Origin: Malacoraja senta
Lineage: Eukaryota
DNA length: 64,000 bases
Reading direction: 5' to 3'
Assembly (NCBI GenBank): GCA_038087875.1
Contig: CM075991.1
Span: 12,650,001 to 12,714,000 of the forward strand
Positions 1 through 37,224 of this stretch are shown piece by piece. Positions within the stretch are counted from its first letter, which is position 1; every line of letters begins with the position of its first letter. Below the pieces are notes generated by a model. That model made no database searches, was not told the origin of the DNA, and saw only the letters and a program-made list of their open reading frames with translations. The position numbers were made by a program, and so were the translations under genes.

Positions 1-62
1 TGAAGTAGCAGAAAATGGCCTTCAGCTTCTCAGACGTCCTTGGTGAGGTCGACTCAAACAGC
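1..62 (-). CDS. PARG-like coding exon (truncated by window edge)
   Basis: AG acceptor at 64-63; reads (R)LFESTSPRTSEKLKAIFCYF, resembling PARG [21 protein letters not shown]; phase matches the 489-649 exon. Confidence 0.9.
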
Positions 63-99
63 CTGCGAGGAACAGGTTAGAGTGTGTGAGCCTGGGCCT

Positions 100-355
100 T
101 GTCTCCCCATAACCTCCCCCACCCCCACCTCCAACTCACTCCGCCCCACTCTCCCCCTCCCCCTCACACCCCCTCCTCCCTCCCACTCCCCCCCTACCCC
201 TCCCACACCCCCGCCCCCTCACACCCCCTCCTCCCTCCCACACCCCCTCCTCCACCTCACTCCGCCCCACTCTCCCCCCGCCCCCTCCCACTCTCCTCCT
301 CCCCCCCTCACACCCACCTCCTCCCCCCTCTCGTACCTCCTCCCCCCCCCCCAGC
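100..355. repeat. C-rich low-complexity tract in PARG-like intron
   Basis: Irregular C/A/T runs. Confidence 0.9.
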
Positions 356-488
356 CTACTGACCATCATGGGCCCTGCCTGACCCTTGACCCTCCCATGG
401 CAGTGACCAGTTGAGACCCAGGGGCTGGAGAAGGGGCCGATGGACTGACCGCCAGTGGGCAGTTTCGAGGGTGTGTGCGGACACTGAC

Positions 489-649
489 CGGCTGAAGTTG
501 ATGGTGGGGAAGTTGGAGAACTGGGAGCGAGGGAGCGGGGAGTTGCGATGAGGGAAGGTGCAGAAGAAGGCGTTGGCCAGCAGGCAGGCGCACTGTTCCT
601 GGGACATTGTCAGGGCGTGCTTCATCCCCACCCTCAGCAGCGGGACCGG
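489..649 (-). CDS. PARG-like coding exon
   Basis: tgtttcag acceptor and gtcagt donor; PVPLLRVGMKHALTMSQEQCACLLANAFFCTFPHRNSPLPRSQFSNFPTINFS contains the PARG LLANAFFCTFP motif. Confidence 0.95.
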
Positions 650-914
650 CTGAAACAACAAAAGGAAGAGTGACAGAGACCCTCGCCACCCCCCCCCCCC
701 ACCCACCCAACGGCAGCCCACGCCCCCTGGATCACCGGAGAGTCAGTCGGTCGGGCAGCTTCTGCGAGGAGACAATACCTCTACGTCTCCCAGTCGACCC
801 GACTCTACCCCAGTCAAGGTACCTCCATTCCCAGCTGCTCTCACCCGTCTCCTCCTTGCCATCACAGGATCCACAATGTGGAGGCCGTTCGGCCCACCTG
901 GACAGTGCCGGCAA

Positions 915-1262
915 TGTTGATAATGTTTCAAGAGAGAGTAGGTTTTAGCTCTTAGGGCTAACAGAACCAGGGGTCACAGTTTGAGAATAAGGGTTCAGCC
1001 ATTTAGGACTGAGATGAGGAAAAACCTTTTCACCCAGAGAGTTGTGAATCTGTGGAATTCTCTGCCACAGAAGGCAGTGGAGGCTGGTTCACTGGATGTT
1101 TTCAAGAGAGTTAGATTTAGCTCTTAGGGCTAATGGAATCAAGGGATATGGGGAGAAGGCAGGAACGGGGTACTGATTGTAGATGATCAGCCATGATCAT
1201 ATTGAATGGCGGTGCTGGCTCCAAGGGCCGAATGGCCTCCTCCTGCACCTATTGTCTATGTT
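915..1262 (+). mobile_element. CR1 (HER1-like) LINE 3' fragment
   Basis: FTQRVVNLWNSLP-type C-terminus and tail ...gggccgaatggcctcctcctgcacctattgtctatg. Confidence 0.85.
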
Positions 1263-1355
1263 GCTCCTCCACTGATTTTACGTAGAGGATTTCCTGCTGT
1301 AACGTGTGTGTCTTCCATAATGTGACTGGATATAATGTGAGATTCATTATATAAT

Positions 1356-1661
1356 GGGCGGCACGGTGGCACAGCGGGTAGAGCTGCTGCCTTGCAGCAC
1401 CAGAGTCCCAGGTTCAATCCTGACTACAGGTGCTGTCTGTACGGAGTTTGTACATTCTCTCCCCGTGACCTGCGTGGGTTTTCTCCGGGTGCTCCGGTTT
1501 CCTCCCACAATCCAAAGATGTACAGGTTTGTAGGTTAATTGGCTTGGTAAATGTAAATTGTAAATTGTCCCTAGTGTGTGTAGAGTGCGGGGATCGCAGG
1601 TCGGCACGGACTCAGTGGGCCGAAGGGCCTGTTTCCACGCTGTATTTCTAAACCAAATTAA
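1356..1661 (+). mobile_element. tRNA-derived V-SINE (HE1-like), near full length
   Basis: A-box/B-box-like head (tggcacagcgg...ggttcaatcc), V-domain ttctccgggtgctccggtttcctcccaca, CR1-like tail gggccgaagggcctgtttcc. Confidence 0.85.
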
Positions 1662-1699
1662 AGATGAATGAAGGGAATTGGCTCTGATCTAATTCACAT

Positions 1700-2400
1700 C
1701 AAGAACAAGGGAACTCTGGAAATTGACAAGCAGAGAAAAAAAACTTCCTTGGATTAAACAGTACAGAGAATAACGGAAGATGGTCCAGAACTAAATGTGT
1801 TTCAAAAGAAACTAATAGACTATGGGTTAATAACTGGAAAAAAGCTAATTCTAAAATTTTGGAAGAAGGCTCCAATACCAACTATAAACATGTGGATTTC
1901 AAATATGTTCGAAACATTACACCTAGAAGAGATAAGACTCCTCCTGGCAGGTAAACCCGATCACCTCCACCTGACGTGGTCTGCATTTATAGAATTATTA
2001 CAAATATAGGGTGCAAAGGTACCTTAAAAAAATTGAGGTCAGGTAATGGGGGATGCTAGTTGAAGAGTTGGTATGTCCCATTTACGTAATGCTCATAAAA
2101 ATATTTGTTTCTCTCTTTTTCCTCTTTCTCTTTCTCCTTCTTTTCTAGGGTCTATTTCTTAACTCTTTTTCTTTTGTTTTTAATTTTGTTCTTATAGGGT
2201 CTTCGTCCTTTTTTGTTGTCACATTTTCTACACTCTCACTTTTTCCTTCACTTTCTTCTTTCTTTCAATCTTATCCTTTCCTTTTTCTAGTGTAAAAAAT
2301 AAATGGAGTACATTAATTGTAAGAAGACATAAGTGACGAGTACTAATGTATGTGGTTGTAATGTAATGTACTTCTAATAAATAAAAAATTAAAAAAATAT
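1700..2400 (+). mobile_element. L1-clade LINE 3' end
   Basis: ORF 1797-2009 GKKLILKFWKKAPIPTINMW...LHLEEIR...TWSAF resembles fish-type L1 ORF2 C-terminus; T-rich 3' UTR then AATAAA and A-rich tail at ~2376-2398. Confidence 0.7.
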
Positions 2401-2972
2401 ATATATAGTGCAGAGGGGGAAAAAAACGTTTCCATGTAACCTCCCCACCGTAATCCGACACCATTGTTCCCTAAGGACACAGCTACTATTTTAACTGTGG
2501 ATGATCGATGAAATCAATAACTGGTCACTATTAACATTTGTGCAATGATACTCTGGTAAATGTATAGCCTTTAGTATTTTTAGGTTGCAGTAACAAAAGT
2601 AAATTTATAGATATTGAAAAGAAAGTTATTCTTGGAAAAGAACTGCTGCAAAAATATTGTTATTGAGTCTGAAACTCCTAACCCCATTGACATTAATGTT
2701 ATAATGCAATATTCAGCAAGAGGAGGTTTCTAAAGGACACACGTTGGTGTTTTAGTAGGAGACACCTGAACCTGCTCGAGCTGCTCTGTGGACAACCCTG
2801 GCCCCATTTACCCCGGCCAACCCCGTCCCGTCCAGTGCCCAGTTGGCCACCTGTAGGTACATCCAGTGGCTTGGGTACCTGGAGAAATTGGCACAGTGTT
2901 GGTCACTCACTGGCCTGGTCCTGACACCTCTATCTCCCGGCCCTGGTTGGATAGCACTGACACGTCACTCAC

Positions 2973-3062
2973 CTTCTGGCACAGTTGTGGTGCCCGCAGA
3001 GCCAGCTGTGCCACCTGCGGCAACAGTCTCCCCAGAAGATACTGCTGGTCAGCGGGCTGCAT
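2973..3062 (-). CDS. PARG-like coding exon
   Basis: 90 nt, cag/gtgagt, phase 0-0; MQPADQQYLLGRLLPQVAQLALRAPQLCQK resembles PARG [24 protein letters not shown]. Confidence 0.88.
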
Positions 3063-3181
3063 CTGTAGGGGGGGGGTGGGGGGGAAGGAAAGGTCACCAT
3101 GAATCTTCCCAGGGAGAGGAAGAGCCGACAGGACTGACCCACACAGCGCTGGGCCCAAGCAACAGACCTTAAATACAGGTC

Positions 3182-3427
3182 GTTTAAGAAGGAACTGCAG
3201 AAGCTGGAAAATCGAAGGTAGACAAAAATGCTGGAGAAACTCAGCAGGTGCAGCAGCATCTATGGAGCGAAGGAAATAGGCAACGTTTCGGGCCGAAACC
3301 CTTCCGGGTTTCGGCCCGAAACGTTGCCTATTTCCTTCAGGGTTTCGGCCCAAAACGTTGCCTATTTCCTTCGCTCCATAGATGCTGCTGCATCCGCTGA
3401 GTTTCTCCAGCACTTTTGTCTACCTTA
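3182..3427. repeat. Palindromic Penelope-derived terminal repeat
   Basis: Arms ggtagacaaaa.tgctggagaaactcagc... and its reverse complement; ORF track gives near-identical peptides on both strands. Confidence 0.75.
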
Positions 3428-3781
3428 AATACAGATCAATACTTATCCATGTCCGACTCAAAGATAGGCTCATCAACCTGACCTTTGACCCACACAAAGC
3501 TGTGGCCAAGCAACTAGTCCATGACCCAGGTGGAGGTCACCACTTTCCTAGGGCTGCAGCTTTGATCCACCTCATCGCTGACCACACTCAGGACCAGAGC
3601 GTCTGGTCGCTGGAGGAGACAACTGCGAGGTCACAACCTTCCCGCCCCAGTCATAATCATCCCAACACTGTCCTTGGATCTGGGTCGCTGAGACAAGGGA
3701 ACAGACTCTCATCCATCGCCTCAAGCTCCCTCTAGTCGTTGCACGGACATGTATGGAGGTTCCGTCAGCAAGGAATTCTCT

Positions 3782-4245
3782 TTAGTTTATTACCGAGGTA
3801 CAGTGGAAAGCTTTTTGTTGCGTGCTATCTGGCCAGTGGAAAGATTATACATGATTACAATCAAGCCTTCCACAGTGTACAGATACAGCATGAAGGGAAT
3901 AACATTTAGTGCAAGATAGTGTCCGGTAAAGTCTGATTATAGATAGTCTAAGGGTCTCCAATGAGGTGGATGGGAGGTCAGGACCACTCTCTCGTTGGTG
4001 AGAGGACGGTTCAACAGCATGATAACAGCCGGGAAGAAACTATCCCTGAATCTGGAGATGTGTGTTATCACATTTCTGTACCTCTTGCCCGACGGGAGAG
4101 GGGGGAAGAGGGAGTGACCGGGGTGAGACTGGTCCTTGATGATGCTGCTGGCCTTGCCGAGGCAGCGTGAGGTGTGGATGGAGTCAGTGGAAGGGAGGTT
4201 GGTTGGTTTGTGTGTGTGTGATGGTCTGGGCTGCATCCACAACTC
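3782..4245 (-). mobile_element. Rex1/Babar-clade LINE 3' fragment
   Basis: KASSIIKDQSHPGHSLFPPLPSGKRYR...RFRDSFFPAVIMLLN plus a 3' tail repeated at ~21390, 26340, 33730, 35310, 63430. Confidence 0.75.
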
Positions 4246-4357
4246 TTTCCATGGAATCTCACAACTTCCTGTGTGGAATCTCTGAGGTTTGAAGCAAAGT
4301 TCATTAATACGATAACTTTTCTAAAAGGAAAATATACGAGACTGAGGATGAACATAC

Positions 4358-4432
4358 CTGGTCCAAGTGTCGACAAAGTCCCACAAACCTCCAGACATTG
4401 GAGTACTTTGGGTTGTAGCGTTTGATCGCTCT
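4358..4432 (-). CDS. PARG-like coding exon
   Basis: 75 nt, cag/gtatgt; RAIKRYNPKYSNVWRFVGLCRHLDQ resembles PARG DAILKYNVAYSKKWDFTAL. Confidence 0.88.
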
Positions 4433-4544
4433 CTGTGAGATCAACAGAAAATACAAGTAGCAGATGAACAGGTGAAGACAATGCCCGTCCCCCCCGTCCC
4501 CTCTGGGTTTGACGCCCACACTTTGACCGGGAACGAGATTAGTG

Positions 4545-4972
4545 CGGCACGGTGGTGCAGCAGGTAGAACTGCTGCCTCATAGCGCTAGGGACCCGGGTT
4601 CCATCCTGACCACGGGAGCTGTCTATGTGTAGTTGGTACATTCCCCCCTGTGACAGCGTGGGTTTTCTCCAGGTGCTCCGGTTTCCTCCCACATCCCAAA
4701 GACATGACGCTTGTCGGTTAATTGGCCAGCCATCCCTGTACACTAACACTATCCTACACACACTAGGGACAATTTTTACATTTACCAGCCCAATTAACCT
4801 ACAAACCTGCACGTCTTTGGGGTGTGGGAGGAAACCGAAGATCTGGGAGAAAACCCACGCAGGTCACGGGGAGAACGTACAAACTCCGTACAGACAGCAC
4901 CCGTAGTGGGGATCGAACCCGGGACCCTGGCGCTGTGAGGCAGCAACTCTACCGCTGCGTCACCGTGACCGC
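4545..4972. mobile_element. Two HE1-like SINE copies in opposite orientation
   Basis: + copy ~4545-4722 and - copy ~4735-4972, both with V-domain. Confidence 0.8.
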
Positions 4973-5024
4973 TGAAGCCTGATGTGGATGGTACACGATT
5001 TTTAAAATATCAAATTAATTTTAC

Positions 5025-5108
5025 CTCCAAATCCTTGGCGCTTGTGAAGTGCGGCCGGTTTAAAGCCTCTCTAATAACATCCCAGCGATTCACCACTTCC
5101 CCACGCTG
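5025..5108 (-). CDS. PARG-like coding exon
   Basis: 84 nt, polypyrimidine+cag / gtaa; QRGEVVNRWDVIREALNRPHFTSAKDLE resembles PARG [21 protein letters not shown]. Confidence 0.87.
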
Positions 5109-6111
5109 CTGAAGGAATGAAAGAGGGGATGGGGTCAGGAGTGTTGCTTCCTCCTCAGTTATTAATCACACCTGAATCACTTGGGTTGGGGCAGCTTACA
5201 CCCCCAGCAGTCTGAACATTGCTTTCTCTAACATCAAGTAACCCATGCATCCCCTCTCTCCCCATCCCTCCCCCACCCTAGTTGTCCAACTAGTTTAATT
5301 GTCCGTACACAAAAATGCTGGAGAAACTCAGCAGGTGCAGCAGCATCTAGATGCTGCTGCACCCGCTGAGTTTCTCCAGCATTTTTGTGTACCTTCGATT
5401 TTCCAGCATCTGCAGTTCCTTCTTTAATAGTTTAATTGTCCTCCTGATTAATGGTGCCTCATCCTCACCTTCCCCTCAGCTAACAATGAACCACATGTGT
5501 GGGAAAGAACTGCAGATGTTGCTTTAAATCAAAGATAGACACAAAGTGCTGGAGTAACTCAGCAGGACAGGCAGCATCTCTGGAGGGAAGGAATGGGTGA
5601 TGTTTCGGGTCGAGACGCTTCTTCAGTCTGACACTGAATCATTCTACATTTCCTTATCATCGGCTGCTTTGATCTGTTCTTTTCACACCTCACCCTTCCA
5701 TATCTCTGTGTCTCCCTCTCCACTGATTCTCAGTCTCGACCCGAAACGTCACCCATTCCTTCTCTCCAGAGATGCTGCCCGTCCCACTGAAGTTACTCCA
5801 GCATTTTGTGTTTTTCTTTGGTTTAAACCAGCATCTGCAGTTCCTTCCAACACATTTAGTTTAACTTGGCATGGTGTACGGCACAGACATTGTGGGCCGA
5901 AGGGCCTGTGCTGTTCTATGACTGGTGTCATGGGTTATGGGGAGAAGGCAGGAGAACGGGGTTGAAAGGGAAAGATGGATCAGCTTTGATTGAATAGCGG
6001 AGTAGACTTGATGGGCTGAATGGCCTAATTCTGCTCCTATCACTGTAAAAATACCTGAAAGCAACTAACATGGGGATTGAGCCCGGAAGCATTTGAGCAA
6101 AGTTGAGTTAC

Positions 6112-6240
6112 CTGTCCAGGTATTGCCGCAGTCTGCTTGTTGAAGGTGGAGAATGGCATCTTCACCTGTGCTGAGTTCCACACCTTCTCTGGAGCGGGGA
6201 TGCTGAAGGGGACGATTATCCCGGACGGAAGTCCAGCAAC
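6112..6240 (-). CDS. PARG-like coding exon
   Basis: 129 nt, ttgcag/gtaact; VAGLPSGIIVPFSIPAPEKVWNSAQVKMPFSTFNKQTAAIPGQ resembles PARG DLWDNKHVKMPCS. Confidence 0.87.
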
Positions 6241-6307
6241 CTGCAAGACAGAGACTACAGCTGGTGATTGGACAGCACAGCCCTCTGTAGATAGTGTCCA
6301 CTCTTAG

Positions 6308-6593
6308 CCAGCGGGTAGAGTTGCTGCCTCACAGCGCCAGGGACCCAGGTTCCATCCTGACTACGGGTGCTGTCTGTACGGAGTTTGTACGTTCTCCCCG
6401 TGACCTGCGTGGGTTTCTCCGGTTTCCTCCCACACTCCAAAGACGAACAGGTTTGTAGGTTAATTGGCTTGGTGTAAGTGTACATTGTCCCTAGTGTGTG
6501 TAGGATAGTGTTAGTGTGCGGGGATCGCTGGTCGGTGCGGACGCGATGGGCTGAAGGGCCTGTTTCCGCGCTGTATCTCTAAACTAAACTAAA
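6308..6593 (+). mobile_element. HE1-like SINE
   Basis: V-domain and (ctaaa)n tail. Confidence 0.85.
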
Positions 6594-6612
6594 ATATGAA
6601 CTAAATTCTCAC

Positions 6613-6768
6613 CTCCACCAAGATGCTGTGATCTTCTGTTGGCCTCAGAGCTGGTTCTGTGACGGGTCGGTGCTCAGAGGTCCCAGACTCCCGCCTGTCC
6701 ACACAACACGTCCACCCCATCTCCGCACCACGCTCGCCGCCCAAACCCCTCCTTCCCTCCGAACTCAT
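6613..6768 (-). CDS. PARG-like exon, probable first coding segment (5' boundary uncertain)
   Basis: gtgaga donor after LRPTEDHSILVE (cf. PARG LRPSANHTVTIR); frame open back to ATG 6768, preceded by in-frame TGA at 6774-6772; candidate acceptor ctctccag would start the exon at 6786. Confidence 0.6.
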
Positions 6769-6844
6769 TCTTCACTCTGCTGTGTCCTGGAGAGCCTCAC
6801 TTCACGAGGCAGGTGTAAAGGAACAAAGTTACCGAGTGTGCTCG

Positions 6845-7275
6845 CAGGGAACCGCAGATGCTGCTCTACATGAAAAGACACAAAGTGCTGGAGTAACTCA
6901 GCGGGACGGGCAGCATCTCTGGAGTGAAGGAATGGGTGACGTTTCGGGTCGAGACCCTTCTCCAGACGGAGTCAGGGGAGAGAGAGAGACACAGAGATAA
7001 GGAAGGGCGAGGTGTGAAAAGGACAGATCAAAGCAGACGATGATAAGGAAATGTAGAATGATTCATTGTTTGCTGAGGGGAAGGTGACAACGAGGCAGAC
7101 AATCAGTACAATTAATCAGGACAGTGAAACTAGTCGGAGAACTAGGGTGGGGGAGGGATGGAGAGAGAGGGAAAGCAAGGGTTACTTGAAGTTAGAGAAG
7201 TCATTATTCATCCACTGTTGTAAGCTGCCCAAACGCAATATGAGGGGCAGTTCCTCCAGTTTGCACTTGGCCTCA
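6845..7275 (-). mobile_element. Penelope-like element 3' fragment
   Basis: KLEELPLILRLGSLQ...NNDFSNFK resembles the GIY-YIG endonuclease C-terminus, followed by terminal repeat. Confidence 0.7.
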
Positions 7276-8299
7276 ACATTACCTAATGTAGCCTCAAGGA
7301 ACTGCAGATGCTGCTTTACACAAAAAGGCCTGACCCGCTGAGTTACTCCAGCACTGTGTGAAACGTCACCTATCTCCACATGTTCTCCACAGATGCTGCC
7401 TGACCCGCTGAGTTACTCCAGCTTTTCGTGCATCTTTATAGGACTTTGATTAGGCCACAAGTGCAGTTGTGGTCGCCCCTTTACAGGGAGGGTGTGGGGG
7501 CGTTGGAGAGGGTGCAGAGGAGGTTGTCCAGGGTGACGCCTGGTTTGAGGGGTGTTAGCTAGAAGGAGTCGTTGGCCAGACCGGGATTGTTTTCTTTGGA
7601 ATGCGGAGGTTGAGGGAAGTATTTGAAGGTATTCGAGGTGTGGCTGGGGTAAACACACAACCTTTATCACAGGGTGGAAATATCAAAGACACAGCTTGAA
7701 GGTGAGAGGGGTAGGGGCAGGGTTTTGACACAGAGGGTGGTGGGTGCCTGGGGTTGGTGGTGGAGGCAAATACGATAGTGGTGTTTAACTAGTTTATAGG
7801 TAGGTAGGCACACATACGGATATACAGGGAACTGACAGATGTGGATCACGTCCAGGCAGAGATTAGTTTAACTTGGCACGGACATTGTGGGCCGAAGGGC
7901 CTGACCCTGAACTGTTCTGTTCTGTGTGTAGAAAGGATGCTGGTGTATAATCGAAGTTTATAAAGATAATATAATATAATCGAAGTACATAAACACAGAG
8001 TGCTGGAGGAACTCAGCGGGGTCAGGCAGCATCTGTGGAGAGGAGAGGAGAGGGGGTGGGTGACGTTTCGGGTGGGGACCCCCTTCTTCAGACTGAGGGA
8101 ACTCTCCGAGAGAGGCGGAAGTTTGGATGTGGAGAAGCAGTGAGCTGTGAAGCATAAACTGGATGAATGTGTGAGCTGATCTAGGTACCGCCGGCTCTGT
8201 CTGACACAGGAGGGGATAGATACTGTATCTAGCATGGGCCGGAGTGAAGGGTTCCGCTGACACAGAGCTGTGGAAGCAACATTGCAAACACTCACTCAC

Positions 8300-8399
8300 C
8301 TCCCCCTGCTCCGGCATGCCCTTCTCCACCTCCCCGACACACACACACAGCGAGGGCCACAAGCACAACCCGGAAATGAAAGTGAAAGAAAGAGTCGAG
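8300..8399 (-). other. Candidate upstream (5'/first) exon of the PARG-like gene
   Basis: Strong donor GAG/gtgagt at 8300/8299 preceded by ATG CCG GAG CAG GGG GAG; non-repetitive sequence containing an IRF/ETS motif. Confidence 0.4.
8370..8391 (+). promoter_or_regulatory. ISRE/IRF-binding element with overlapping ETS core
   Basis: ccGGAAatGAAAgtGAAAgaaa: GAAAGTGAAA fits the IRF consensus GAAANNGAAA. Confidence 0.45.
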
Positions 8400-9944: not shown

Positions 9945-10100
9945 GCCGGTGCGCTGGAAAACGCGGATCCCGGAAGTTGCCCGGAGTCGGGATTCCAGCA
10001 AAAGCTGCAACTATTTAAATACTTCGGGCGACTCCACCTTCCGCAATATTCACTTTTATATAAAAGCAGCATCGAGTTTTAACGGGTGTGTTCCTTGACC
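9945..10100. promoter_or_regulatory. CpG-enriched promoter-like segment between the divergent genes
   Basis: ETS site CCGGAAGT at 9970-9977, perfect palindrome CTTTTATATAAAAG at 10053-10066, several CpGs. Confidence 0.3.
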
Positions 10101-12424: not shown

Positions 12425-12624
12425 NNNNNNNNNNNNNNNNNNNNNNNNNNNNNNNNNNNNNNNNNNNNNNNNNNNNNNNNNNNNNNNNNNNNNNNNNNNN
12501 NNNNNNNNNNNNNNNNNNNNNNNNNNNNNNNNNNNNNNNNNNNNNNNNNNNNNNNNNNNNNNNNNNNNNNNNNNNNNNNNNNNNNNNNNNNNNNNNNNNN
12601 NNNNNNNNNNNNNNNNNNNNNNNN
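12425..12624. other. Assembly gap (200 N)
   Basis: N run; the round length suggests a placeholder. Confidence 1.
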
Positions 12625-22540: not shown

Positions 22541-24512
22541 CTTGCTTCATAAGACTGGACACAGATCTGGGCGATAGATAATTGCGTCGGCCATGATAAC
22601 TGCCCTGGCCCTGCAGAACCAAAGCGTTTTCAGCAGAGCGCACATTAGTGTACACACCATCTGACTGATATCTGCCTGAACTCTGGACCACATGTACCGG
22701 AACAGCCGGGAACAAAGGAAACACCATGTTCCTCCCTGGGTGGAACGACTTTGTTTGTGTAAATGTGACTCATATTTGACAAAGTCAGCATACATCCACA
22801 GGTCAGAGTCACAGCAGAAAAACGTACACTTTGCTGGAGAGGTTGAATTGTATCTTCATATGAGGATTATAAAAGAAGATATATCGGAGTTTTCACGAAC
22901 GGCAGCACTGGGAATGGGGTGTTTGTTTCCCTGGGTCTTGGCAGTGATTTGTTTTTCATTTGAGTGGGTAATTAAGGGCAGGAGTGAGTGAGGTGCAGCG
23001 ACAAGCTGCCTTTCCTTGCTCTCCCCTGACTGATGCAGCACGAGACTTAGTCGTACACTGCCCTCGGGAATGTGGGGAGGGGAGGGGTCAATGGTCTTTA
23101 ACATGGAGCCTGTGGTGAGAGATGGTTGGATGGATGTGACTGAGTAGAGATACTGTGTGTTTCCACCCACTGTGTCGGCCTGACCCCACCTGGTGCACTA
23201 CGGTACACTTGCTACATGTTGGAGGGTTCTTTAATCCTTACAGGCAGCACAGTTTGAGTAGCTGCCTCACTCACAGCACCAGACACCAGCTTTGTCACCT
23301 TCCCATACCTAACAATGATCTAGTCCACATTTTCCTTTACCTCGTCCCCTTTCATGTCTCGTTTTCACACCTCACCCTTCCATATCTCTGTCTCCCTCTC
23401 CCCTGACTCTCAGTCTGAAGAAGGGTCTCGACCCGAGAGGTCACCCATTCCTTCTCTCCAGAGATGCTGCCTGTCCCGCTGAGTTACTCCAGCATTTTGT
23501 GTCTATTTTCGATCCTGACCTCAGGTTCTGTCACAGAGTTACCTGGGTCGGGCAGCATCTTGCGAGCTGGGTCCATATGTCCGTGCTGTAGTCGGGTGCT
23601 TGTTAGCCAGGAGGTCCTGGGAAAAAGACCTCACAGCGATCACGGGTCTAATAAATACTAATATGAATTTGTAACACAGTACCCCAAGGTGAGTAAATAA
23701 CAACACAACTCCACAAAGTATGGAGCGCTTCAGTGTATAGATATTGAAACTCTGCGTACAGAGCTGCCTCATAGCGCCAGAGACCCCGGTTCAATCCTGA
23801 CGAAGGCGGCTGTCTGTACGGAGTTTGCACGTTCTCCCAGTGACCACGTGGGTTTTCTCCGGGTGCTCTGGTTTCCTCCCACAATCCAAAGAAGTGCAGG
23901 TTTGCAAGTTGTGTGGGAAGAACCAGTAGACAATAGATAATAGGTGCAGGAGCAGGCCATTTGGCCCTTCGAGCCTGTAGATGCTGGTTTATACCGAAAG
24001 TAGACACAAAATTCTGGAGTAACTCGGCGGATCAGGCAGCATCCCTGGAGGGAAGGAACAGGTGACATTTTGGGTCGAGACCTTTCTTCAGACTGAGACA
24101 TGCCTCTCATTTCCCTTTCCCCTGAGTCTCAGCCTGAAGAAGGGTCTCGGCCTGAAACCTTACTCCAGAGATGCGTCTAAAGAAGGGTTTCGGCCCGAAA
24201 CGTTGCCCATTTCCTTCGCTCCATAGATGCTGCTGCACCCGCTGAGTTTCTCCAGCATTTTTGTCTACTCCAGAGATGCTGCCTGACCCGCTGAGATATA
24301 AAATGTAGGCTGGGTACTGAGCCAGTACTTTGAGACTATAAACACACGGGAGAAGAATTAGGCCATTCGGCCCATCGGGTGTGTTCTGAGTAGGTGTTGC
24401 ATGTACTTTGTGTGTGTTGTGCCTGCTTTGTTTCAGTGCTGTGTCTGTCTATGGAGGTCGTGGCCTGGGTTTGGGTTGGTGTTGACTAACTTGCCCTTTG
24501 CTTGTCATCCAG

Positions 24513-24657
24513 CATTGCTCACCTCTTGGAGCGAGGACCTGCGTAGACTTCTCCTCCTCCACCACCAGGCGAGCCGCTCCAATAGCTCGGCCGTTAAGCT
24601 GCCCGGCCCGCCCTCCATGAACTCCATGAAGCCTTCTCTTCCGCCCACACCGCACAG
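24513..24657 (+). CDS. ZMIZ2: ZMIZ2 exon (ZMIZ1-like N-terminal end plus ZMIZ2-type ATG at 24617)
   Basis: 145 nt, cag/gtatgt; [48 protein letters not shown]. Confidence 0.88.
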
Positions 24658-24726
24658 GTATGTTCGTACGTACGCCGTCACGTAACACACGGGGAGCGTT
24701 TGTCGGCGCTGGGCCGGTACTCACCG

Positions 24727-25440
24727 CAGTTTAGAAGGATGAGGGGTTGACCTCATTAAAACTTACCGAATACTGAAAGGCTTTGATAGAGTGGATGTGG
24801 AGAGGATGTTTCCACTAGTTGGAGAGTCTAAGACTAGAGGTCACAGCCTCAGAATAAAAGGACGTATCTTTAGAAAGGAGATGAGGTGGAATTTCTTTCA
24901 CCAGAGGGTGGTGAATATGTGAGATTCATTGCCATAGAAGGCTGTGGAGGTCGCCATTGGGCATTTTTAAGGTGGAGAGATTGTTGATTAGTTTGGGTGT
25001 CAGGGGTTATGGGGAGAAGGCAGGAGATCGGGTAGATGCACAGAGTCTCTTGCCCAGAGTAGGGGAATCGAGGACCAGTGGACATTGGTTTAAGGTGAAG
25101 GGGAAAAGATTTAATAGGAATCTGAGGGGTAACTTTTTCACACAGAGGGTGGTGGGTGTATGGAACAAGCTGCCAGAAGAGGTAGTTGAGGCTGGGAATA
25201 TCCCAACGTTTAAGAAAGTTAGGCAGGTACATGGATCGGACAGGTTTGGAGGGATATAGACCAAGGTCAGACAGGTGGGACTAGTGTAGCTGGAACATGT
25301 TGGCCGGTGTGGGCAAGTTGGGCTGAAGGGCCTGTTTCCACACTGTATCACTCTATGACTAGTGTAGCTGGGACATGTTGGCCGGTGTGGGCAAGTTGGG
25401 CTGAAGGGCCTGTTTCCACGCTGTGTCACTCTATGACTCT
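24727..25440 (+). mobile_element. Two juxtaposed CR1 LINE 3' fragments
   Basis: SRTRGHSLRIKG / FFTQRVVGVWNKLP motifs; duplicated tail. Confidence 0.8.
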
Positions 25441-25974
25441 GTAAAGCTTGGAAGATGTCTGTCAACTCTTGCTGCAGTATTATGATGACAAGGAGTTCTG
25501 TGTATCGCCGGTCGGTGGGTTTTGCAACAGGCAGGAAGGCTTGAGGAGGGAGGATGCAGGGATGGTCGTGGATTATGTGTGACGGTTCACGTCTGCATCG
25601 CGTAGCGGCACTTGACCCGTTGATAATTTGTTTTACGACCACGTGACGTACACATTTATTTATCCACAAACAATGCACGAGTCTTGGTGTTTATGCAATC
25701 AGAGGGTTTTATTAAAGAGGCCACTTAACCCGAAACGTCACCCATTCCTTCTTTCTAGAGATGCTGCCCGTCCCGCTGAGTTATTCCAGAATTTTGTGTC
25801 TATCTTCAGAATCAAGCTACAAGTTTTATATTATGTTTTGTAAAAATCTAACATTTCAAAAATGATGTGGATGTGTTAGATATTTGTTGCTGTGAGTGTT
25901 TCTGCCTTTTAGTGTATCCCTGCTGCTCAAACTGTTTCACTTTGAAACCATTTATTGAGCAGTTATCTCTGGGT

Positions 25975-26285
25975 GCATCTATGCAGCGAAGGAATAGGTG
26001 ACGTTTCGGGTCGAGACCCTTCTTCAGATTTATGTGGGGGGGGGGGGGGTGGGTGGGAAGAAGAAAGGGAGAGGGGGAGACAGTAGGCTGTGGGAGAGCT
26101 GGGAAGGGGTGGGGAAGGAGGGAGAAAGCAGGGACTACCTGAAATTGGAGGTCAATGTTCATACCGCTGGGGTGTAAACTACCCAAACGAAATATGAGGT
26201 GCTGTTCGAGCTCGGTCTCCTCCATTGTCAGAGTGGGACTAAACGCCAATTGGAGGAACAGCATCTCATATTTTGCTTGGGCAGC
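25975..26285 (-). mobile_element. Penelope-like element 3' end with hammerhead-like core
   Basis: LEQHLIFRLGSLHPSGMNID GIY-YIG-like C-terminus followed by CTGAAGAAGGGTCTCGACCCGAAACGTC at 26027-26000. Confidence 0.75.
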
Positions 26286-26616
26286 TTGCCTGAGTTACTC
26301 CAGCATTTTGTGTCTATCTCAGAATGCATGATTATCCCCTTATCTTGTATCTATACACTGTAAATGGATCGGGTGTAATCATGTATTGTCTTTCCGCTGA
26401 CTGGTTAGCACGCAACAAAAAGCTTTTCACTGTACCTCGGTACACCTGACAATAAACTAAACTGAACTGAAGATCGACTAACGGGATTGTGCTGGATTTT
26501 TATAATCTCGCTGCTGCTAGACGTAAGCACATTGTTTTTCTGTCTCTGGTTGCAAGACAGAGAGAGAGGCTTTGCTCGCACACTGACAGCTGCTGTCTTT
26601 TGCATTCCTTCCCCAG

Positions 26617-26734
26617 TGACGGCTCATTCACATACAATGATTCTGTTCCTTGGCAACAGAGCTCCACTCAGCCTCCGGCCTCACTTTCTGTGGTAACGAC
26701 AGTATGGGGAGTCAATAACACCTCCCAGAGTCAG
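26617..26734 (+). CDS. ZMIZ2: ZMIZ2 coding exon
   Basis: [39 protein letters not shown]; ccccag/gtaaaa. Confidence 0.95.
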
Positions 26735-29166
26735 GTAAAACTCTCTCCCTTTCTGGGCTTGCCTGGATATTTATTTATTCACTATTCCCTTGCAGCCTGC
26801 GCTACTGTTCCACCGCACGCCGACCTCCCCAACGCTCAGAGTCGTATCGGCAGTGTGGGGGAGGGAGGGGAGAGCACTCATGAGCAGTCGCCTCTCCTCT
26901 CCTCTCCTCGCTCCCACCGTTCTGCTCCAACTCTGCCCTCTGTGAAGACCAGACTCTTCAGTTGTGAAAGTGAGCGTCACTCAGGAGGAGGCCAGTTCAC
27001 CACCCACTCTTGATCAGTGCGGGTGTCAGGGGTTATGGGGAGAAGGCAGGAGAATGTGGTTGGGAGGGAGAGCCATGATTGAATGGTGGAGTAGACTTGA
27101 TGGGCCGAATGGCCTAATTTCTACTCCTATTCCTCATGACCTTATGACCAGAAATAGGATTAGACCTTGTCAGGAGTTGTCAGTTTCATCTCCCCCACCA
27201 CGTTGAACAGCAAACCTACCAACCAGCATGTTACATGCCAGGCCAGACATTTAAAATATCCACTTCACAACGGAATTTATGATGAAGTAAAACCACACAG
27301 GCAGTGAGTGATCTCTGGGAAACGCCAGCTACTGAGTAACTGGGCGTGGGATCAAACTGATTGCTGAGTTCAGTGGGTGGAGTGGGAATGGGATCAAAGA
27401 GATTGCAGACAAAATGTGTTGGAAGGAACTGCAGATGCTGGTTTAAACCGAAGATAGACACAAAAAGCTGGAGTAACTCAGCGGGACGGGCAGCATCTCT
27501 GGAGAGAAGGAATGGGTGACGTTTTGGGTCACCTATTCTTGATGTTTGACAGCAACAGCTCAATGGAAGAGGAGGTGGGCAGAACTATGACTGAAGGCTA
27601 ACGATGGGACTGTAGCAGGAAATGGCCTTGGCTCAGGAAGCCCACAGTGGAATATGTTTAGACATATGCTACAACAAAGGAAGTGTATCATTGGGGAAGT
27701 GGATATGAAGGAAATAGCAGCAGCATTGAATATTTTGCATCTGTCACCACGTTAGACAATACAAAAGATCCCACAACAAGTAGGGAATCACAGGGAGGAA
27801 TGTAAAGCGAACCCACCCAATGAAGGGAGTGCCTTGGACCAGTGATTGGGATGGAGGGCTAGTGCAGCATCAGGTCTTGATGCGTCAGCTCGCAGCATTT
27901 GGCTGGAGAGATCTGGTTGTGGTCTCCCCAAATGCCCTGGTTCTGCTCAGGTCCCAGTTGATGGGAAGGGCTGGAGGAGTCAGGAGGGAATCACAGGCCA
28001 CTTATCCCAACGTCAGATTGGAAAATTAGCAAAGAAATGGCAACAAAACACTGACAAAATAGTCCAGGAAGGAACTGCAGATGCTGCTTTACGCCAAGGA
28101 TAGACACAAAGCTGGAGTCACTCAGCGGGACAGGCAACATCTCTGCAGAGAAGGAATGGGTGACGTTTCGGGTCGAGACCCTTCTTCAGACTGAGAGTCA
28201 GGGGAGAGGAAAATGGGAGATATAGAACAAATAATGAAAGATATGCAAAAGAGTGACGATGACAAAGGGAAGAGCTGTGGGCGAGGTGGAAACTAGGTGG
28301 GGAGCGGAGGGTTGGGCAAGGGTCAAGGTGAATTGACAAACTAACTGGAGAGGTGGCAAAGATATCAGTGTCGGGACATCGGCTGTTTAGCCTGTATGAA
28401 TCATCCAGATAAAAGAACTAAATATATTGCGTCTAAATGAACTGTGATACAAAGGAAAGCAGGAAAGTAGGTTGTGGGGAAACTCAGTCTGCAAAGAGGT
28501 GTAAGCAGATGAAGGATAATGTAGGGAAAGTTAGTATCTTCACTTTGATGTGAAGAATAGCAAACCAGAATGTTAAATGTTGTGAGATTACTGAATCTTG
28601 GAGTTCTTGTACTGAGAAACTCTCTGTTATATTGTAATTATAAAGGGCACATTGTAAATGTGTTTTTAACTTTCTGAAAGGGTGCAGGAGTAAAACAGAA
28701 GGGTTCTACTGTGTTTAGAGCCTCTCACCATGTTTGGGGTTCTCTAGAACCAGGGGACATAGGTTTAAGGTGAAGTAGGTGGGACTAGTGTAGATGGGGC
28801 ATGTTGGCTGGCGTGTGCATGTTGGGCCGAAGGGCCTGTTTCCACACTGTTTGACGTTACTCTGTGTAGTTGTGTTCACGTTTAGTAAAGCCACGATGGT
28901 CCACTATGGGTTGTTCCGCATCTGTCTCACCCCAATGCTGATTATCGCCCTGACTCTTCACCCAATGTGGCCCCAGTTCCCAGACTCACTTTATATTTAC
29001 TGGGCTTGTTGGAAATGTTACATAAACACACAGTTTTTTCACACAAAAAATCAATTAGATGTGTGTAGGATTATTAATTGGAATAAAGTCAAATAGTCTG
29101 GGACTGCCCGTCCTTCACCAGCGGATGTCTGGTTACCGCAGTTCTATTTGCCTCGGTAGCGATGCA

Positions 29167-29462
29167 GGCGGCATGGTGGCGCAGCGGGTAGAGCTGCTGC
29201 CTCACAGCTCCGGAGACCCGGGTTCGATCCTGACTAGGGGTCAGTCTGTATGGAGTTTGTACGTTCTCCCCGTGACCTGCGTGGGTTTTCTCCAGGTGCT
29301 CAGGTCTCCTCCCACACTCCAAAAACGTGCAAGTTTGTAGGTTAATTGGCTTGGTATAAATGTAATATTGTCCCCAGTGTTAGTGTGTGGGGATCGCAGG
29401 TCGGCACGGACTCAGTGGGCCGAAGGGCCTGTTTCCGTGCTGTATCTCTAAACTAAACTAAT
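29167..29462 (+). mobile_element. HE1-like SINE, full length
   Basis: tggcgcagcgg A-box, ggttcgatcc B-box, V-domain, (ctaaa)n tail. Confidence 0.88.
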
Positions 29463-29798
29463 CTGTTCTCTGATCTGTCTGTTTAATTGGTAAGTTATCA
29501 CAAAGAGGGGTTTCAGTAAAGCGACCGGTTGTATGTGCAACAGACTTGGAGGAAATGTGGGTCAATGTAAGAAAGAAATGAAGCTTGGTTGTCAGAGGAA
29601 TATTGTGAATGTGCTGATGTACTGGAGGCAGGAACGGGGTAATGATTGGGGATGATCAGCCATGATCACATTGAATGGCGATGCTGGCTGGAAGGGCCGA
29701 ATGGCCTCCTGCACCTATTGTCTATTGTGTACAATTCTGAAAGCTGAAATCAAAAGCAAGTGTCCACTTGTGTTAAACCTCTGCTGCCCCTGCCACAG

Positions 29799-30007
29799 GT
29801 CCTAGGGTCCCCTATGCCTCTGGGCGGGAACTCCAGTGGGAATCACATGTCGTCCGGGATACCCGGGAACGGTCCAGGAATGAACTCTCCGCCCTTCATG
29901 GGACAGCAGGCGTTCCCGACCACAGAGACGGCCTCGAGCAAGGCATACATCCAGCAAAGTATGTACGGGCGACCCAACTACCCTGCGGGAGCAGCGTATG
30001 GAGGAAG
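29799..30007 (+). CDS. ZMIZ2: ZMIZ2 coding exon
   Basis: VLGSPMPLGG...MGQQAFP...YIQQSMYGRPNYPAGAAYGG; cag/gtaacc. Confidence 0.93.
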
Positions 30008-30144
30008 GTAACCAAGTGAATAAGAACTCAGCCACACTCTGGTTTAAACCAGCATCTGCAGTTCCTTCATACACGCCAACTTTCTCATCCACTCTTCCCA
30101 CTAATGCTCTCTCTCTCTCTCTCTCTCTCTCCCTTTGCTTTTAG

Positions 30145-30343
30145 TTACTCTGCTGGCCCAAATAGTTCGGGTGGGATGGGAATCCCATCGCATTCCCGGC
30201 CTCCAACGCACTTCACACAGCCCGCTGCCGCTGCTGCAGCTGCAGCCGTTGCTGCGGCTGCGGCAACTGCCACCGCAACTGCCACCGCCACTGTGGCAGC
30301 GCTGCAGGAGAAACAGAACCAGGACATGAGCCAGTATGGACCG
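30145..30343 (+). CDS. ZMIZ2: ZMIZ2 coding exon (Ala/Thr-rich motif)
   Basis: [44 protein letters not shown], the ZMIZ alanine-rich motif; QEKQ is ZMIZ2-type; tag/gtaaga. Confidence 0.96.
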
Positions 30344-31109
30344 GTAAGACATGGACAGTACCTCTGCCTGACCTGGATGGAGAGACAAAATAGAAAATAA
30401 AATGTTGGAATAGTGAGATACACAACAGATGCTGGAACTCTGGAACAAAGTAGAATGTTTGAGATACCCAGCAGATCTGGCAGCATTAATGGAGAGAATA
30501 ACATCATGATCTTACATCAGACTGGCCAGTTCTATCACAAACAGGAAAGGCTGGTTATCTGAATTGTTCAATTCAGTATTGAATAGTGAATGGCCCAGAT
30601 AGAGTGGATGTGGAGAGGATGTTTCCACTAGTGGGAGAGTCTAGGACCAGAGGGCACAGCCTCAGAATAAAAGGACGTACCTTTAGGAAGGAGATGAGGA
30701 GGAATTTCTTTATTCAGAGGGTGGTGAATCTGTGGAAACCCTTGGGTCTCCTTTAGATGTTTCCCGTCTCACCTTAAACCTGTGGCCACCAGTCTGAAGA
30801 AGGGTCTCGACCAGAAACGTCGCCCATTCCTTTTCTCCAGAGATGTTGCATTTTGTGTCTATGTTCGGTGTAAACCAGCACCTGCAGTTCCATCCTACAC
30901 AGGCCAGGGCTGCTCTCGAGTTGGTGATAGGATGGTTCAGATAACATCAGGGGGGAAAAGAAGCTTTGCTCAGTCTGACATCCAGTAATGTTCATGAACG
31001 TTTATGGACAAAGAGACTCATTAACTGGCTGAGAAATGTCAGCTTCCTACTTGATATTCACACATTCAGCAAAACACTTGCCTGATGTTTCATTTGATTT
31101 TTGTTTCAG

Positions 31110-31370
31110 CTAAGTGCAGCGCAGTCTTATAATAACCAATACCTGAACCACTCTGGCCCCCGGGGCTCACCGCAGATGTCCACAGGGATGACCGCAGGAG
31201 GCATGGCCGGAACGAGTATCCCACACATGTCCATGAGCCACTCCAGGTCTCCTGGTATCAACCCCATGTTCTGTGCCCAAAGCCAGCGAATTCCCCAGCC
31301 TGGGTACGGAGCTTCCCGAAGCGCACAGCAGATGCCTGGGCAAGGAGTGAAGAGGCCGTACGTCAGTGAG
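31110..31370 (+). CDS. ZMIZ2: ZMIZ2 coding exon
   Basis: LSAAQSYNNQYLNHSGPRG...GVKRPYVSE; 261 nt, cag/gtaacg. Confidence 0.92.
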
Positions 31371-31819
31371 GTAACGGGGTCGTTCATGCTGCTGTCCTGA
31401 CCATTGTTCCTGCACGCCCTGCTGTGGGTAAGGGCAATAACTGCTCACATGCAAGACATCGAGGGCTGGGGGTGTGCTGCCCACACTCTGCTGGAGTTGC
31501 ATCTCCCAGCTCCTTGCAACTCCCAAATGCTGAAAGAAGTTGTGCTCTCGTGAGATTAAGAATGTGATTTATCAAAGCATTTATATTTGAGGGAAGGGAA
31601 CCAAGGTTCGGGCCAGGTAATTGTTCCGAATGGGACTCATTGCCTTGGCTCTTATTAAAGGAAGGTCTCTCTCTTGACATGCTGCTGATTTTTCTACATG
31701 CATTCCATGCACATGGATTTGATTCCAAATCTCAATTTATTGGGCAGTAATTTGTGAATTCAGTAAGGGTAAATTTCCATTATCCAAATGGCTTGTATAC
31801 CAAAAAGGTTAAAGGTTAC

Positions 31820-32468
31820 ATAGATACATAGAAACATAGAAAATAGGTGCAGGAGTAGGCCATTCGGCCCTTCGAGCCTGCACCGCCATTCAATATGATC
31901 ATGGCTGATCATCCAACTCAGTATCCCGTACCTGCCTTCTCTCCATACCCCCCGATCCCTTTAGCCACAAGGGCCACATCTAACTCCCTCTTAAATATAG
32001 CCAATGAACTGCCGTCAACTACCCTCTGTGGCAGAGAGTTCCAGAGATTCACCACTCTCTGTGTGAAAAAGTTTTTCCTCATCTCGGTCTTAAAGGATTT
32101 CCCCCTTATCCTTAAGCTGTGACCCCTTGTCCTGGACTTCCCCAACATCGGGAACAATCTTCCTGCATCTAGCCTGTCCAACCCCATAAGAATTTTGTAC
32201 GTTTCTATAAGATCCCCTCTCAATCTCCTAAATTCTAGCGAGTATAAGCCAAGTCTATCCAGTCTTTCTGCAGTCCTGACATCCCAGGAATCAGTCTGGT
32301 GAACCTTCTCTGTACTCCCTCTATGGCTATAATGTCCTTCCTCAGATTTGGAGACCAAAACTGCACGCAATACTCCAGGTGTGGTCTCACCAAGACCCTG
32401 TACAACTGCAGTAGAACCTCCCTGCTCCTATACTCAAATCCTCTTGCTATGAAGGCCAACATACCATT
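31820..32468 (-). mobile_element. CR1 LINE ORF2 3' fragment
   Basis: MLAFIARGFEYRSREVLLQLYRVLVRPHLEYCVQFWSP...RRLRGDLIETYKI...FFTQRVVNLWNSLP, frameshifted. Confidence 0.92.
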
Positions 32469-37014: not shown

Positions 37015-37206
<192 letters not shown>

Positions 37207-37224
37207 TGAGTCAAGTCAGGTCCA

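What the first reader, a model, noticed from the sequence alone, without database searches (positions are those of the whole stretch)
1..8399. Divergent, apparently short PARG paralog head-to-head with ZMIZ2: candidate whole-genome-duplication ohnolog absent from mammals
Seen: seven minus-strand exons splice in frame and follow the order of the PARG catalytic-region N-terminal part, but are much more divergent than expected for the canonical ortholog. No long minus-strand ORF corresponding to the large N-terminal regulatory region of canonical PARG is visible between 6.8 and 10 kb. Known: human PARG neighbours OGDHL on chr10 (which also carries ZMIZ1), while ZMIZ2 neighbours OGDH on 7p13. Inference: this is the PARG copy of the ZMIZ2/OGDH paralogon, a mostly catalytic-domain enzyme possibly related to teleost pargl.
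Basis: partly seen in the sequence, partly recalled or inferred. Interest (0 to 1): 0.7.

Follow-up and report, generated by a model that had tools for sequence, protein, structure and literature searches.

The report
Second vertebrate PARG beside ZMIZ2
This skate gene is a short second copy of the poly(ADP-ribose)-erasing enzyme PARG, found in sharks, fishes and salamanders but in no frog, reptile, bird or mammal sequence we retrieved; it likely arose by whole-genome duplication, and its relatives have lost a sugar-gripping residue that almost all other animal and protist PARGs keep, so it is predicted to be a differently tuned, possibly interferon-induced eraser.

Summary
Seven minus-strand exons splice GT-AG in frame into 252 stop-free residues, 88% identical to an annotated 532-aa skate 'PARG-like' protein with the same start. 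Trees split jawed-vertebrate PARGs into canonical PARG and a faster-evolving short clade (PARG2) that holds the window; a shark-only duplication is rejected. PARG2 shares a contig with ZMIZ2 in 11 of 11 species checked, and canonical PARG with ZMIZ1 in 7 of 8, which fits an ohnolog pair. No frog or amniote PARG2 was retrieved. New here: PARG2 keeps Asp737/Glu755/Glu756 but lacks Asn740, the 3''-OH ligand, in 128 of 133 members; 92 of 92 canonical and 126 of 129 other PARGs keep it. It also lacks the PIP-like motif (0 of 134 vs 69 of 92). A tandem IRF-type element sits at a likely non-coding first exon, and salmonids carry TRIM-PARG2 fusions, but interferon induction is untested and one salmonid list lacks PARG. 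'Head-to-head' is unproven: ZMIZ2's first 96 codons are missing from the window, so PARG2 may be nested. The catalytic exons lie outside the window. The gene is annotated, but I found no study of it.

The parts
8373..8388 (+). Tandem IRF/ISRE-type element (three GAAA repeats), about 75 nt upstream of the candidate exon-0 donor of PARG2
   Evidence: Only match in 64 kb for both patterns; shuffles give 0.28 and 0.02 per window. Consensus recalled; function untested.
8300..8365 (-). Candidate non-coding first exon of PARG2 with a short upstream ORF (ATG at 8317); 5' end approximate
   Evidence: Its donor is the best-scoring of 319 GT sites in 6790-12400 on the minus strand (7.2; the six true donors score 2.4-8.1). 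Several RefSeq transcripts encode one protein in other skates. No RNA test.
6772..6774 (-). In-frame stop two codons before the start codon; closes the frame upstream
6613..6786 (-). PARG2 coding exon 1 (ATG at 6768; acceptor at 6786 inferred); ends where mouse exon 4 ends
   Evidence: alignment to mouse PARG with the exon limits given in PMC3897571
6112..6240 (-). PARG2 coding exon 2 (matches mouse exon 5 regulatory segment)
5025..5108 (-). PARG2 coding exon 3
4358..4432 (-). PARG2 coding exon 4
2973..3062 (-). PARG2 coding exon 5 (start of helical domain PF20811)
489..649 (-). PARG2 coding exon 6
1..62 (-). PARG2 coding exon 7, cut by the window edge; the macrodomain exons with the catalytic loop lie beyond
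10053..10066 (.). Palindromic TATA-type element in a small CpG-richer patch; candidate promoter for either strand
   Evidence: Only such match on each strand; untested
12425..12624 (.). Assembly gap (200 N) that may hide ZMIZ2 5' exons
24512..54846 (+). ZMIZ2 coding exons from residue 97 to the stop (annotated 'ZMIZ1-like' in sharks and rays)
   Evidence: tblastn, tree, synteny with teleost zmiz2, stop codon

Best explanation
The window holds the first seven coding exons of PARG2, a short second PARG gene beside ZMIZ2 that likely arose in an early vertebrate whole-genome duplication and is predicted to be an active but retuned poly(ADP-ribose) hydrolase that would work away from PCNA. Shown: exon structure, start codon, clade membership, linkage by shared contig, and the residue pattern in relatives. 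Inferred steps: (1) the PARG-ZMIZ block was duplicated; canonical PARG stayed with ZMIZ1 and PARG2 with ZMIZ2, and PARG2 was later lost in frogs and in amniotes. (2) PARG2 dropped the long N-terminal region with its PIP-like motif and starts in the exon equivalent to mammalian exon 4, so it would not be recruited to replication or repair sites in the canonical way. (3) It binds ADP-ribose with the conserved Glu727, Tyr/Phe795, Phe875 and Phe902 and cleaves the ribose-ribose bond with Glu756, helped by Glu755 and Asp737. (4) With Ser, Cys or Ala in place of Asn740 it grips the 3''-OH of the distal ribose weakly, so it would turn over PAR more slowly or accept a different range of ADP-ribose substrates. 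(5) Least certain: it serves the interferon response, trimming ADP-ribose signals made by interferon-induced PARPs.
For: Splicing and start. Two clades at 100/99 each; shark-only duplication rejected, p-AU 5e-44; same split in 85- and 354-row trees. Canonical PARG shares a contig with ZMIZ1 in 7 of 8 species. The two PARGs lie on different contigs in 8 of 8 chromosome-scale species checked. Asp737, Gln754, Glu755 in 133 of 133 and Glu756 in 132 of 133 PARG2; Asn740 in 5 of 133 versus 92 of 92 and 126 of 129; 17 of 17 skate rows have Ala. Asn740 binds the 3''-OH (PMC3519477; PMC8319183); mouse N733A is less active but not called dead (PMC3897571). PIP-like motif 0 of 134 versus 69 of 92. Faster evolution in 55 of 55 species pairs, 54% versus 71% mean identity. 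IRF-type element; TRIM fusions in salmonids.
Against: The catalytic exons of this very gene are outside the window, so the Asn loss here is inferred from skate relatives. No activity or expression data. Lamprey placement cannot date the duplication (p-AU 0.24 and 0.07), and OGDH could not be checked, so a segmental duplication is not excluded. Contig-length matches show the same chromosome, not adjacency, except in D. mawsoni. The ZMIZ tree has no outgroup or shark ZMIZ1. Skates and rays have a degenerate first half of the exon-4 regulatory segment, whose hydrophobic residues mouse PARG needs. No PARG is named in a salmonid interferon-response table that lists PARP14 and IFIT5 or in the main text of the zebrafish ISG paper. 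The 11-base IRF pattern alone appears in 27 of 100 shuffles of the window.
Confidence: 0.62

Rival explanations
1. PARG2 is an ordinary PAR hydrolase under relaxed selection: a redundant or tissue-restricted back-up of canonical PARG, with the Asn change tolerated and the IRF-type motif incidental or skate-specific.
For: N733A keeps some activity. Ser lies near the distal ribose in active Deinococcus PARG (Ser95; its equivalence to Asn740 is recalled, not tested). The site varies among Ser, Cys and Ala and is Asn in 5 of 133. The gene was apparently lost twice. PARG is absent from one fish interferon list.
Against: Kept intact in sharks, bony fishes, coelacanth, lungfish, caecilians and salamanders with an invariant catalytic core; non-Asn in 128 of 133 is not random drift at a site otherwise fixed; TRIM fusions in four salmonid species.
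Confidence: 0.3
2. PARG2 has changed substrate: the space left by Asn740 lets it act on ADP-ribose with a modified 2''/3'' position, on branched units, or on mono-ADP-ribosylated protein or nucleic acid, more than on linear PAR.
For: The change is clade-wide and sits at the 3''-OH contact; neighbouring positions 741, 742 and 876 also diverge from both canonical and invertebrate PARGs.
Against: All other PAR-binding and catalytic residues are kept; no assay or model with ligand was available.
Confidence: 0.2
3. PARG2 is a nearly inactive PAR-binding reader or decoy.
For: Loss of Asn740; degenerate regulatory segment in batoids; fusion to RING-Bbox-coiled-coil in salmonids would suit a PAR-targeting module.
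Against: Asp737, Glu755, Glu756 are kept in 132-133 of 133, which a reader would not need.
Confidence: 0.1
4. PARG2 and ZMIZ2 arose by a local segmental duplication in the jawed-vertebrate stem, not by whole-genome duplication.
For: Only one paralogous neighbour pair (ZMIZ1/ZMIZ2) was tested here; lamprey position is unresolved.
Against: Timing matches the genome duplications (PMC7269912); copies lie on different chromosomes; further pairs OGDH/OGDHL and PPIA/PPIF flank ZMIZ2/ZMIZ1 in human (recalled).
Confidence: 0.12
5. The gene is the skate's canonical PARG with its N-terminal exons missed.
For: The genome of this species could not be searched.
Against: 41-45% identity to canonical versus 61-88% to PARG2; tree placement; in-frame stop before the ATG; Mobula, Carcharodon and Mustelus have both genes.
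Confidence: 0.01

Closest known systems
Canonical vertebrate PARG (human, mouse; PDB 4A0D, 4FC2)
   Same: Helical plus macrodomain catalytic fold (PF20811, PF05028), GGG-x-QEE loop, Asp737/Glu755/Glu756, Tyr clasp, Phe875/Phe902, exon-4/5 boundary; E 3e-152 over residues 30-510 of a skate relative.
   Different: About 530 aa in skates versus 800-960; no PIP-like motif; Asn740 replaced; Leu instead of Thr at 748 (the invertebrate state); faster evolution; linked to ZMIZ2, not ZMIZ1.
RefSeq 'poly(ADP-ribose) glycohydrolase-like' of skates (XP_032870007, XP_055518418, XP_078285168) and fish gene symbol pargl
   Same: Direct orthologs: same start, 75-88% identity, same contig as the ZMIZ gene.
   Different: Automatic annotation only. 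The symbol pargl appears in one searched paper, in enrichment lists; that pargl is this clade is likely but recalled, not tested.
Short mammalian PARG isoforms (about 55-60 kDa) that start in exon 4 (recalled)
   Same: Catalytic domain without the long N-terminal region.
   Different: Those are isoforms of the one gene and keep Asn740; PARG2 is a separate gene.
Bacterial-type PARG (Deinococcus, Thermomonospora)
   Same: Active PARG with a Ser near the distal ribose (Ser95 in Deinococcus; PMC6445106).
   Different: Distinct minimal family without the eukaryotic accessory domain; positional equivalence to Asn740 not tested.

Membership tests
Canonical-type (eukaryotic) PARG family | Helical domain plus PARG macrodomain (PF20811 + PF05028) | tested here: met
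   Both far above the Pfam cut-off in Leucoraja ortholog P0343; window exon 6 hits solved PARG structures at E 6e-17. The macrodomain part is outside the window.
Canonical-type (eukaryotic) PARG family | GGG-x(6-8)-QEE signature with Glu755/Glu756 and Asp737 | tested here: met
   In relatives: 133 of 133 for GGG, Q754, E755, D737; 132 of 133 for E756. Not readable in the window itself.
Canonical-type (eukaryotic) PARG family | Asn740 binding the 3''-OH of the distal ribose | tested here: not met
   Ser 47, Cys 46, Ala 35, Asn 5 of 133 PARG2; Ala in 17 of 17 skate rows.
Canonical-type (eukaryotic) PARG family | Tyr clasp (795) and Phe875/Phe902 | tested here: met
   Tyr 111 or Phe 22 of 133 at 795; Phe 124 or Tyr 9 at 875; Phe 130 of 133 filled rows at 902.
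Canonical-type (eukaryotic) PARG family | Hydrolysis of poly(ADP-ribose) | not testable with these tools
   Needs an enzyme assay.
Vertebrate canonical PARG ortholog group | Groups with shark, coelacanth, frog, snake and teleost long PARG | tested here: not met
   Window lies in the sister clade, 100/99.
Vertebrate canonical PARG ortholog group | Long N-terminal region with PIP-like motif | tested here: not met
   No tblastn hit in the window; in-frame stop before ATG; motif 0 of 134 versus 69 of 92 (motif pattern recalled).
1R/2R ohnolog pair | Duplication after invertebrate chordates and before the shark/bony-fish split | tested here: met
   Both clades hold sharks and bony vertebrates; tunicate and echinoderms outside; shark-only duplication rejected.
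1R/2R ohnolog pair | Copies on different chromosomes beside paralogous neighbours | tested here: met
   PARG2-ZMIZ2 11 of 11; PARG-ZMIZ1 7 of 8; different contigs 8 of 8. Only one neighbour pair tested.
1R/2R ohnolog pair | Assignment to the first or second duplication (cyclostome position) | tested here: inconclusive
   Lamprey joins PARG2 at 86/80; alternatives not rejected, p-AU 0.24 and 0.07.
1R/2R ohnolog pair | Block-wide paralogy including OGDH/OGDHL | not testable with these tools
   No genome held; no cyclophilin exon in the window.
Interferon-stimulated genes | ISRE/IRF element at the promoter | tested here: inconclusive
   Motif present and unique in the window, but the first exon is inferred and conservation in other species could not be read.
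Interferon-stimulated genes | Induction by interferon | not testable with these tools
   No RNA data laid; PARG not named in one salmonid table or in the zebrafish paper's main text (its supplements not seen).

The most novel reading that the evidence does not exclude
Jawed vertebrates began with two PARGs. PARG2 became an interferon-induced, PCNA-free ADP-ribose eraser whose Asn740 loss changed its substrate range for the antiviral ADP-ribosylation system; salmonids fused it to a TRIM E3 ligase module; frogs and amniotes lost it, so human antiviral ADP-ribose turnover lacks an ancestral component.
Probability: 0.25. Interest if true: 0.78.

Novelty: new variant of a known kind. Interest (0 to 1): 0.52.

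Why it matters
Vertebrate PARG is treated as a single essential gene and is a drug target. A second, ancient vertebrate PARG with a natural substitution at a substrate-binding residue that is otherwise almost invariant gives a ready test of what Asn740 contributes to rate and specificity. It also matters for fish and axolotl work: PARG knockouts or inhibitors in these models act on a background with an unstudied second enzyme. If interferon induction holds, it adds an eraser to the ancient PARP9/12/14 antiviral set and a TRIM-PARG fusion with no described counterpart in the papers searched.

Tried and rejected
Whole-genome search: no genome held, so OGDH, the catalytic exons and this species' canonical PARG could not be read. 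Sequencing runs: no RNA holder listed on record; no reads were laid, so expression and the first exon stay untested; this is no evidence either way. Canonical-ortholog reading rejected. Shark-specific duplication rejected. Retrocopy rejected: six introns, one at the mouse exon-4/5 position. Coding extension by the 8300-8317 exon rejected: the three acceptor candidates in frame with the ATG run into the TGA at 6774. ZMIZ residues 1-96 sought with relaxed tblastn: only 7-9-residue chance hits. PPIA/cyclophilin sought downstream of ZMIZ2: none in the window. ZMIZ tree lacks an outgroup, so I rest the ZMIZ2 call on teleost synteny plus a shared 3-residue insertion near the short-isoform start. Two mixture-model 'careful' trees did not finish and returned quick trees; five rows were cut wrongly at the C-terminus, corrected from then on. 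For the 354-row tree and residue counts, 40 of 394 candidate rows were dropped (under 330 aligned positions or not PARG); the 10 dropped representatives were classed by BLAST, 3 as PARG2, all fish-like. ESM Atlas gave only generic PARG clusters. Earlier-findings look-ups were empty. PMC10499325 had nothing on the Asn. One salmonid ISG paper was not held.
Full report
Observation. The minus strand of 1-6768 carries seven exons (6768-6613, 6240-6112, 5108-5025, 4432-4358, 3062-2973, 649-489, 62-edge). All six introns are GT...AG and the joined frame reads 252 codons without a stop. The product aligns without gaps to an Amblyraja RefSeq 'PARG-like' protein (88%, E 2e-170) and at 85% and 75% to Leucoraja and Rhinoraja proteins of 533 and 528 aa that begin at the same Met. 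The window is therefore from a skate. An in-frame TGA sits two codons before the ATG, and N-terminal regions of seven long PARGs find nothing in the window at E<0.05. The protein is short. The catalytic macrodomain exons lie left of base 1, and no genome is held, so all active-site statements rest on relatives.

Identity. Searches with exon 6 (120 of 122 hits listed), a caecilian relative (120 of 1756 listed) and a coelacanth relative against 50%-identity representatives (150 of 4890 listed) gave 354 usable rows, the window included. Trees of 85, 354, 40 and 26 rows all show two jawed-vertebrate clades. In the finished bootstrap tree each has 100/99 support and the window is sister to Leucoraja inside the short clade, here called PARG2; forcing all cartilaginous-fish copies together is rejected (p-AU 5e-44). 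PARG2 includes sharks, rays, bichirs, sturgeons, gar, bowfin, teleosts, coelacanth, lungfish, caecilians and salamanders. The one lamprey PARG cluster retrieved is long and joins PARG2 weakly (86/80); placing it outside both clades (p 0.24) or with canonical PARG (p 0.07) is not rejected, so the duplication cannot be assigned to the first or second genome duplication. PARG2 evolves faster: lower identity than canonical PARG in 55 of 55 species pairs, 54% versus 71% on average (the pairs are not independent).

Losses. Of the 120 rows, 34 are PARG2 and none of these is a frog or amniote by name or by tree position; all 12 frog rows are canonical. Of 150 representatives, 12 fall in PARG2 by tree and 3 more by BLAST; those named are amphibian (caecilian) or fish, and the unnamed ones group with salamanders or teleosts. 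The two searches cover each other's blind spots only in part: an amniote PARG2 near 50% identity to the caecilian could sit below the list cut-off and inside another cluster. Loss in frogs and amniotes is likely, not proven.

Synteny. The plus strand carries a ZMIZ gene from 24512 (residue 97) to 54846. Using identical 'longest contig' lengths as a mark of the same chromosome, PARG2 and this ZMIZ co-occur in 11 of 11 species where both were listed: Amblyraja, Leucoraja, Rhinoraja, Narcine, Pristis, Heterodontus, Heptranchias, Mustelus, Scyliorhinus torazame and two Dissostichus. In D. mawsoni the locus tags are consecutive (F7725_015700 and 015701), and that ZMIZ groups with gorilla and gerbil ZMIZ2 at 100. 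Canonical PARG shares a contig with ZMIZ1 in 7 of 8 species (Hyla, Ascaphus, Rhinoderma, two Pelobates, Crotalus horridus, Esox; the miss is a scaffold-level sturgeon). The two PARGs lie on different contigs in 8 of 8 chromosome-scale species checked. This fits an ohnolog pair from the vertebrate genome duplications (PMC7269912, passages). The human OGDH-ZMIZ2-PPIA and OGDHL-PARG/ZMIZ1-PPIF arrangement is recalled and was not tested.

Head-to-head or nested. Long ZMIZ2 isoforms of two other skates have 96 more N-terminal residues, and a third skate's has the last 40 of them. Relaxed tblastn finds none of them in the window. They are in the 200-N gap at 12425-12624, left of base 1 (PARG2 then sits antisense inside a ZMIZ2 intron), or lost. 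I put nesting at about even odds. PARG2 is divergent from the short ZMIZ2 isoform in any case.

Active site. Numbering follows human PARG and was checked against PMC3519477 (passages). Among 133 PARG2 rows Asp737, the three glycines, Gln754 and Glu755 are invariant, Glu756 is kept in 132, position 795 is Tyr or Phe, and Phe875/Phe902 are nearly invariant. Asn740 is different: Ser 47, Cys 46, Ala 35, Asn 5, against Asn in 92 of 92 canonical and 126 of 129 other eukaryotic rows (rows, not independent events). The five Asn rows are scattered teleosts, probably reversals. All 17 skate rows have Ala. Asn740 hydrogen-bonds the 3''-OH of the distal ribose (PMC8319183, passages). In mouse, N733A lowers activity while E748N and E749N are dead (PMC3897571, section 6; the figure values were not visible). 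Active Deinococcus PARG has a Ser near the distal ribose (PMC6445106, passages). So the change most likely retunes rather than kills the enzyme. A PIP-like motif (pattern recalled) occurs before the catalytic region in 69 of 92 canonical and 0 of 134 PARG2 rows. Window exon 1 ends at the mouse exon-4/5 boundary; the first half of that regulatory segment is recognisable in bony-fish PARG2 but degenerate in skates and rays, which could lower activity further.

Regulation. The best minus-strand splice donor among 319 GT sites in 6790-12400 is at 8300/8299 (weights recalled). About 75 nt upstream, 8373-8388 holds three tandem GAAA repeats in IRF/ISRE spacing, the only such site in 64 kb. Shuffles give 0.28 matches per window for the 11-base pattern (27 of 100 shuffles reach one) and 0.02 for the triple pattern (2 of 100); the position next to the candidate exon adds weight, but the patterns were chosen after seeing the site. 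Salmonid records from four species (Salvelinus alpinus in two assemblies, S. fontinalis, Oncorhynchus kisutch, Coregonus) fuse a TRIM B-box and coiled-coil, with RING in all but the Coregonus row, to PARG2; these are gene models, not shown transcripts. Against an interferon role: no PARG term in the supplement table of PMC6612602, which lists PARP14 and IFIT5 but reports only 51 genes induced over 2-fold, and none in the main text of bioRxiv 10.1101/693333 (supplements closed, and they bear on this claim). I give interferon induction about 0.35.

Mechanism. Most likely: a soluble catalytic-domain PARG that binds the terminal ADP-ribose, protonates the leaving group with Glu756 and releases ADP-ribose, with a looser 3''-OH site and no PCNA tether, acting outside the replication and repair role that canonical PARG keeps. 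Gene structure, clade, linkage and residue pattern are shown; activity, specificity, localisation and induction are inferred.

What is known. The gene is annotated automatically as 'PARG-like'. Ten full-text searches listed no study of a second vertebrate PARG; the symbol pargl occurs as a fish gene in one paper's enrichment lists (PMC11017090, passages). The library lacks most subscription journals, so older surveys of PARG evolution may mention the duplicate. It is a member of the eukaryotic PARG family by fold and catalytic pair, fails the Asn740 feature, and is not a canonical PARG ortholog.

Verdict. New variant of a known kind; interest 0.52.

Noticed in passing
window 24512-54846 (+) and proteins P0362, P0363, P0230: Shark and ray ZMIZ2 (annotated 'ZMIZ1-like') keeps the N-terminal Zmiz1_N domain (PF18028) that the mammalian and teleost ZMIZ2 rows lack; the exons for it are missing from this window.
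   Followed up: partly
proteins P0196, P0221, P0379, P0392 (salmonids): TRIM B-box/coiled-coil (with RING in three of the four) fused to PARG2 in four salmonid species, alongside unfused copies; several records on one Salvelinus chromosome.
   Followed up: partly
window 10053-10066 and about 9960-10145: Palindromic TATA-type element with an ETS-like site and a plausible plus-strand donor at 10143; possible promoter of the short ZMIZ2 isoform or a two-way promoter.
   Followed up: no
window 8317-8300 and 6786-6772 (-): Predicted 10-codon upstream ORF in frame with the PARG2 start, ending one codon before it; could damp translation.
   Followed up: partly
PARG2 alignment, positions 758, 792, 869: Many PARG2 rows, mostly teleost, carry further changes (Arg758 to Leu in 67 of 133, Tyr792 to Thr/Ser/His/Ile in 28, Asn869 to Lys in 27).
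   Followed up: no
proteins P0001, P0383: Flatworm proteins (Schistocephalus, Macrostomum) with two tandem PARG catalytic domains.
   Followed up: no
window 54847-61810 (+): A+T-rich, repeat-poor stretch after the ZMIZ2 stop with poly(A) signals near 61800; likely a 7-kb 3' UTR. No cyclophilin exon found in the window.
   Followed up: no
window 12425-12624; 9290-9910; 90-380: 200-N assembly gap flanked by G/A-rich low-complexity sequence, and two further G/A-rich tracts; local assembly may be unreliable.
   Followed up: no
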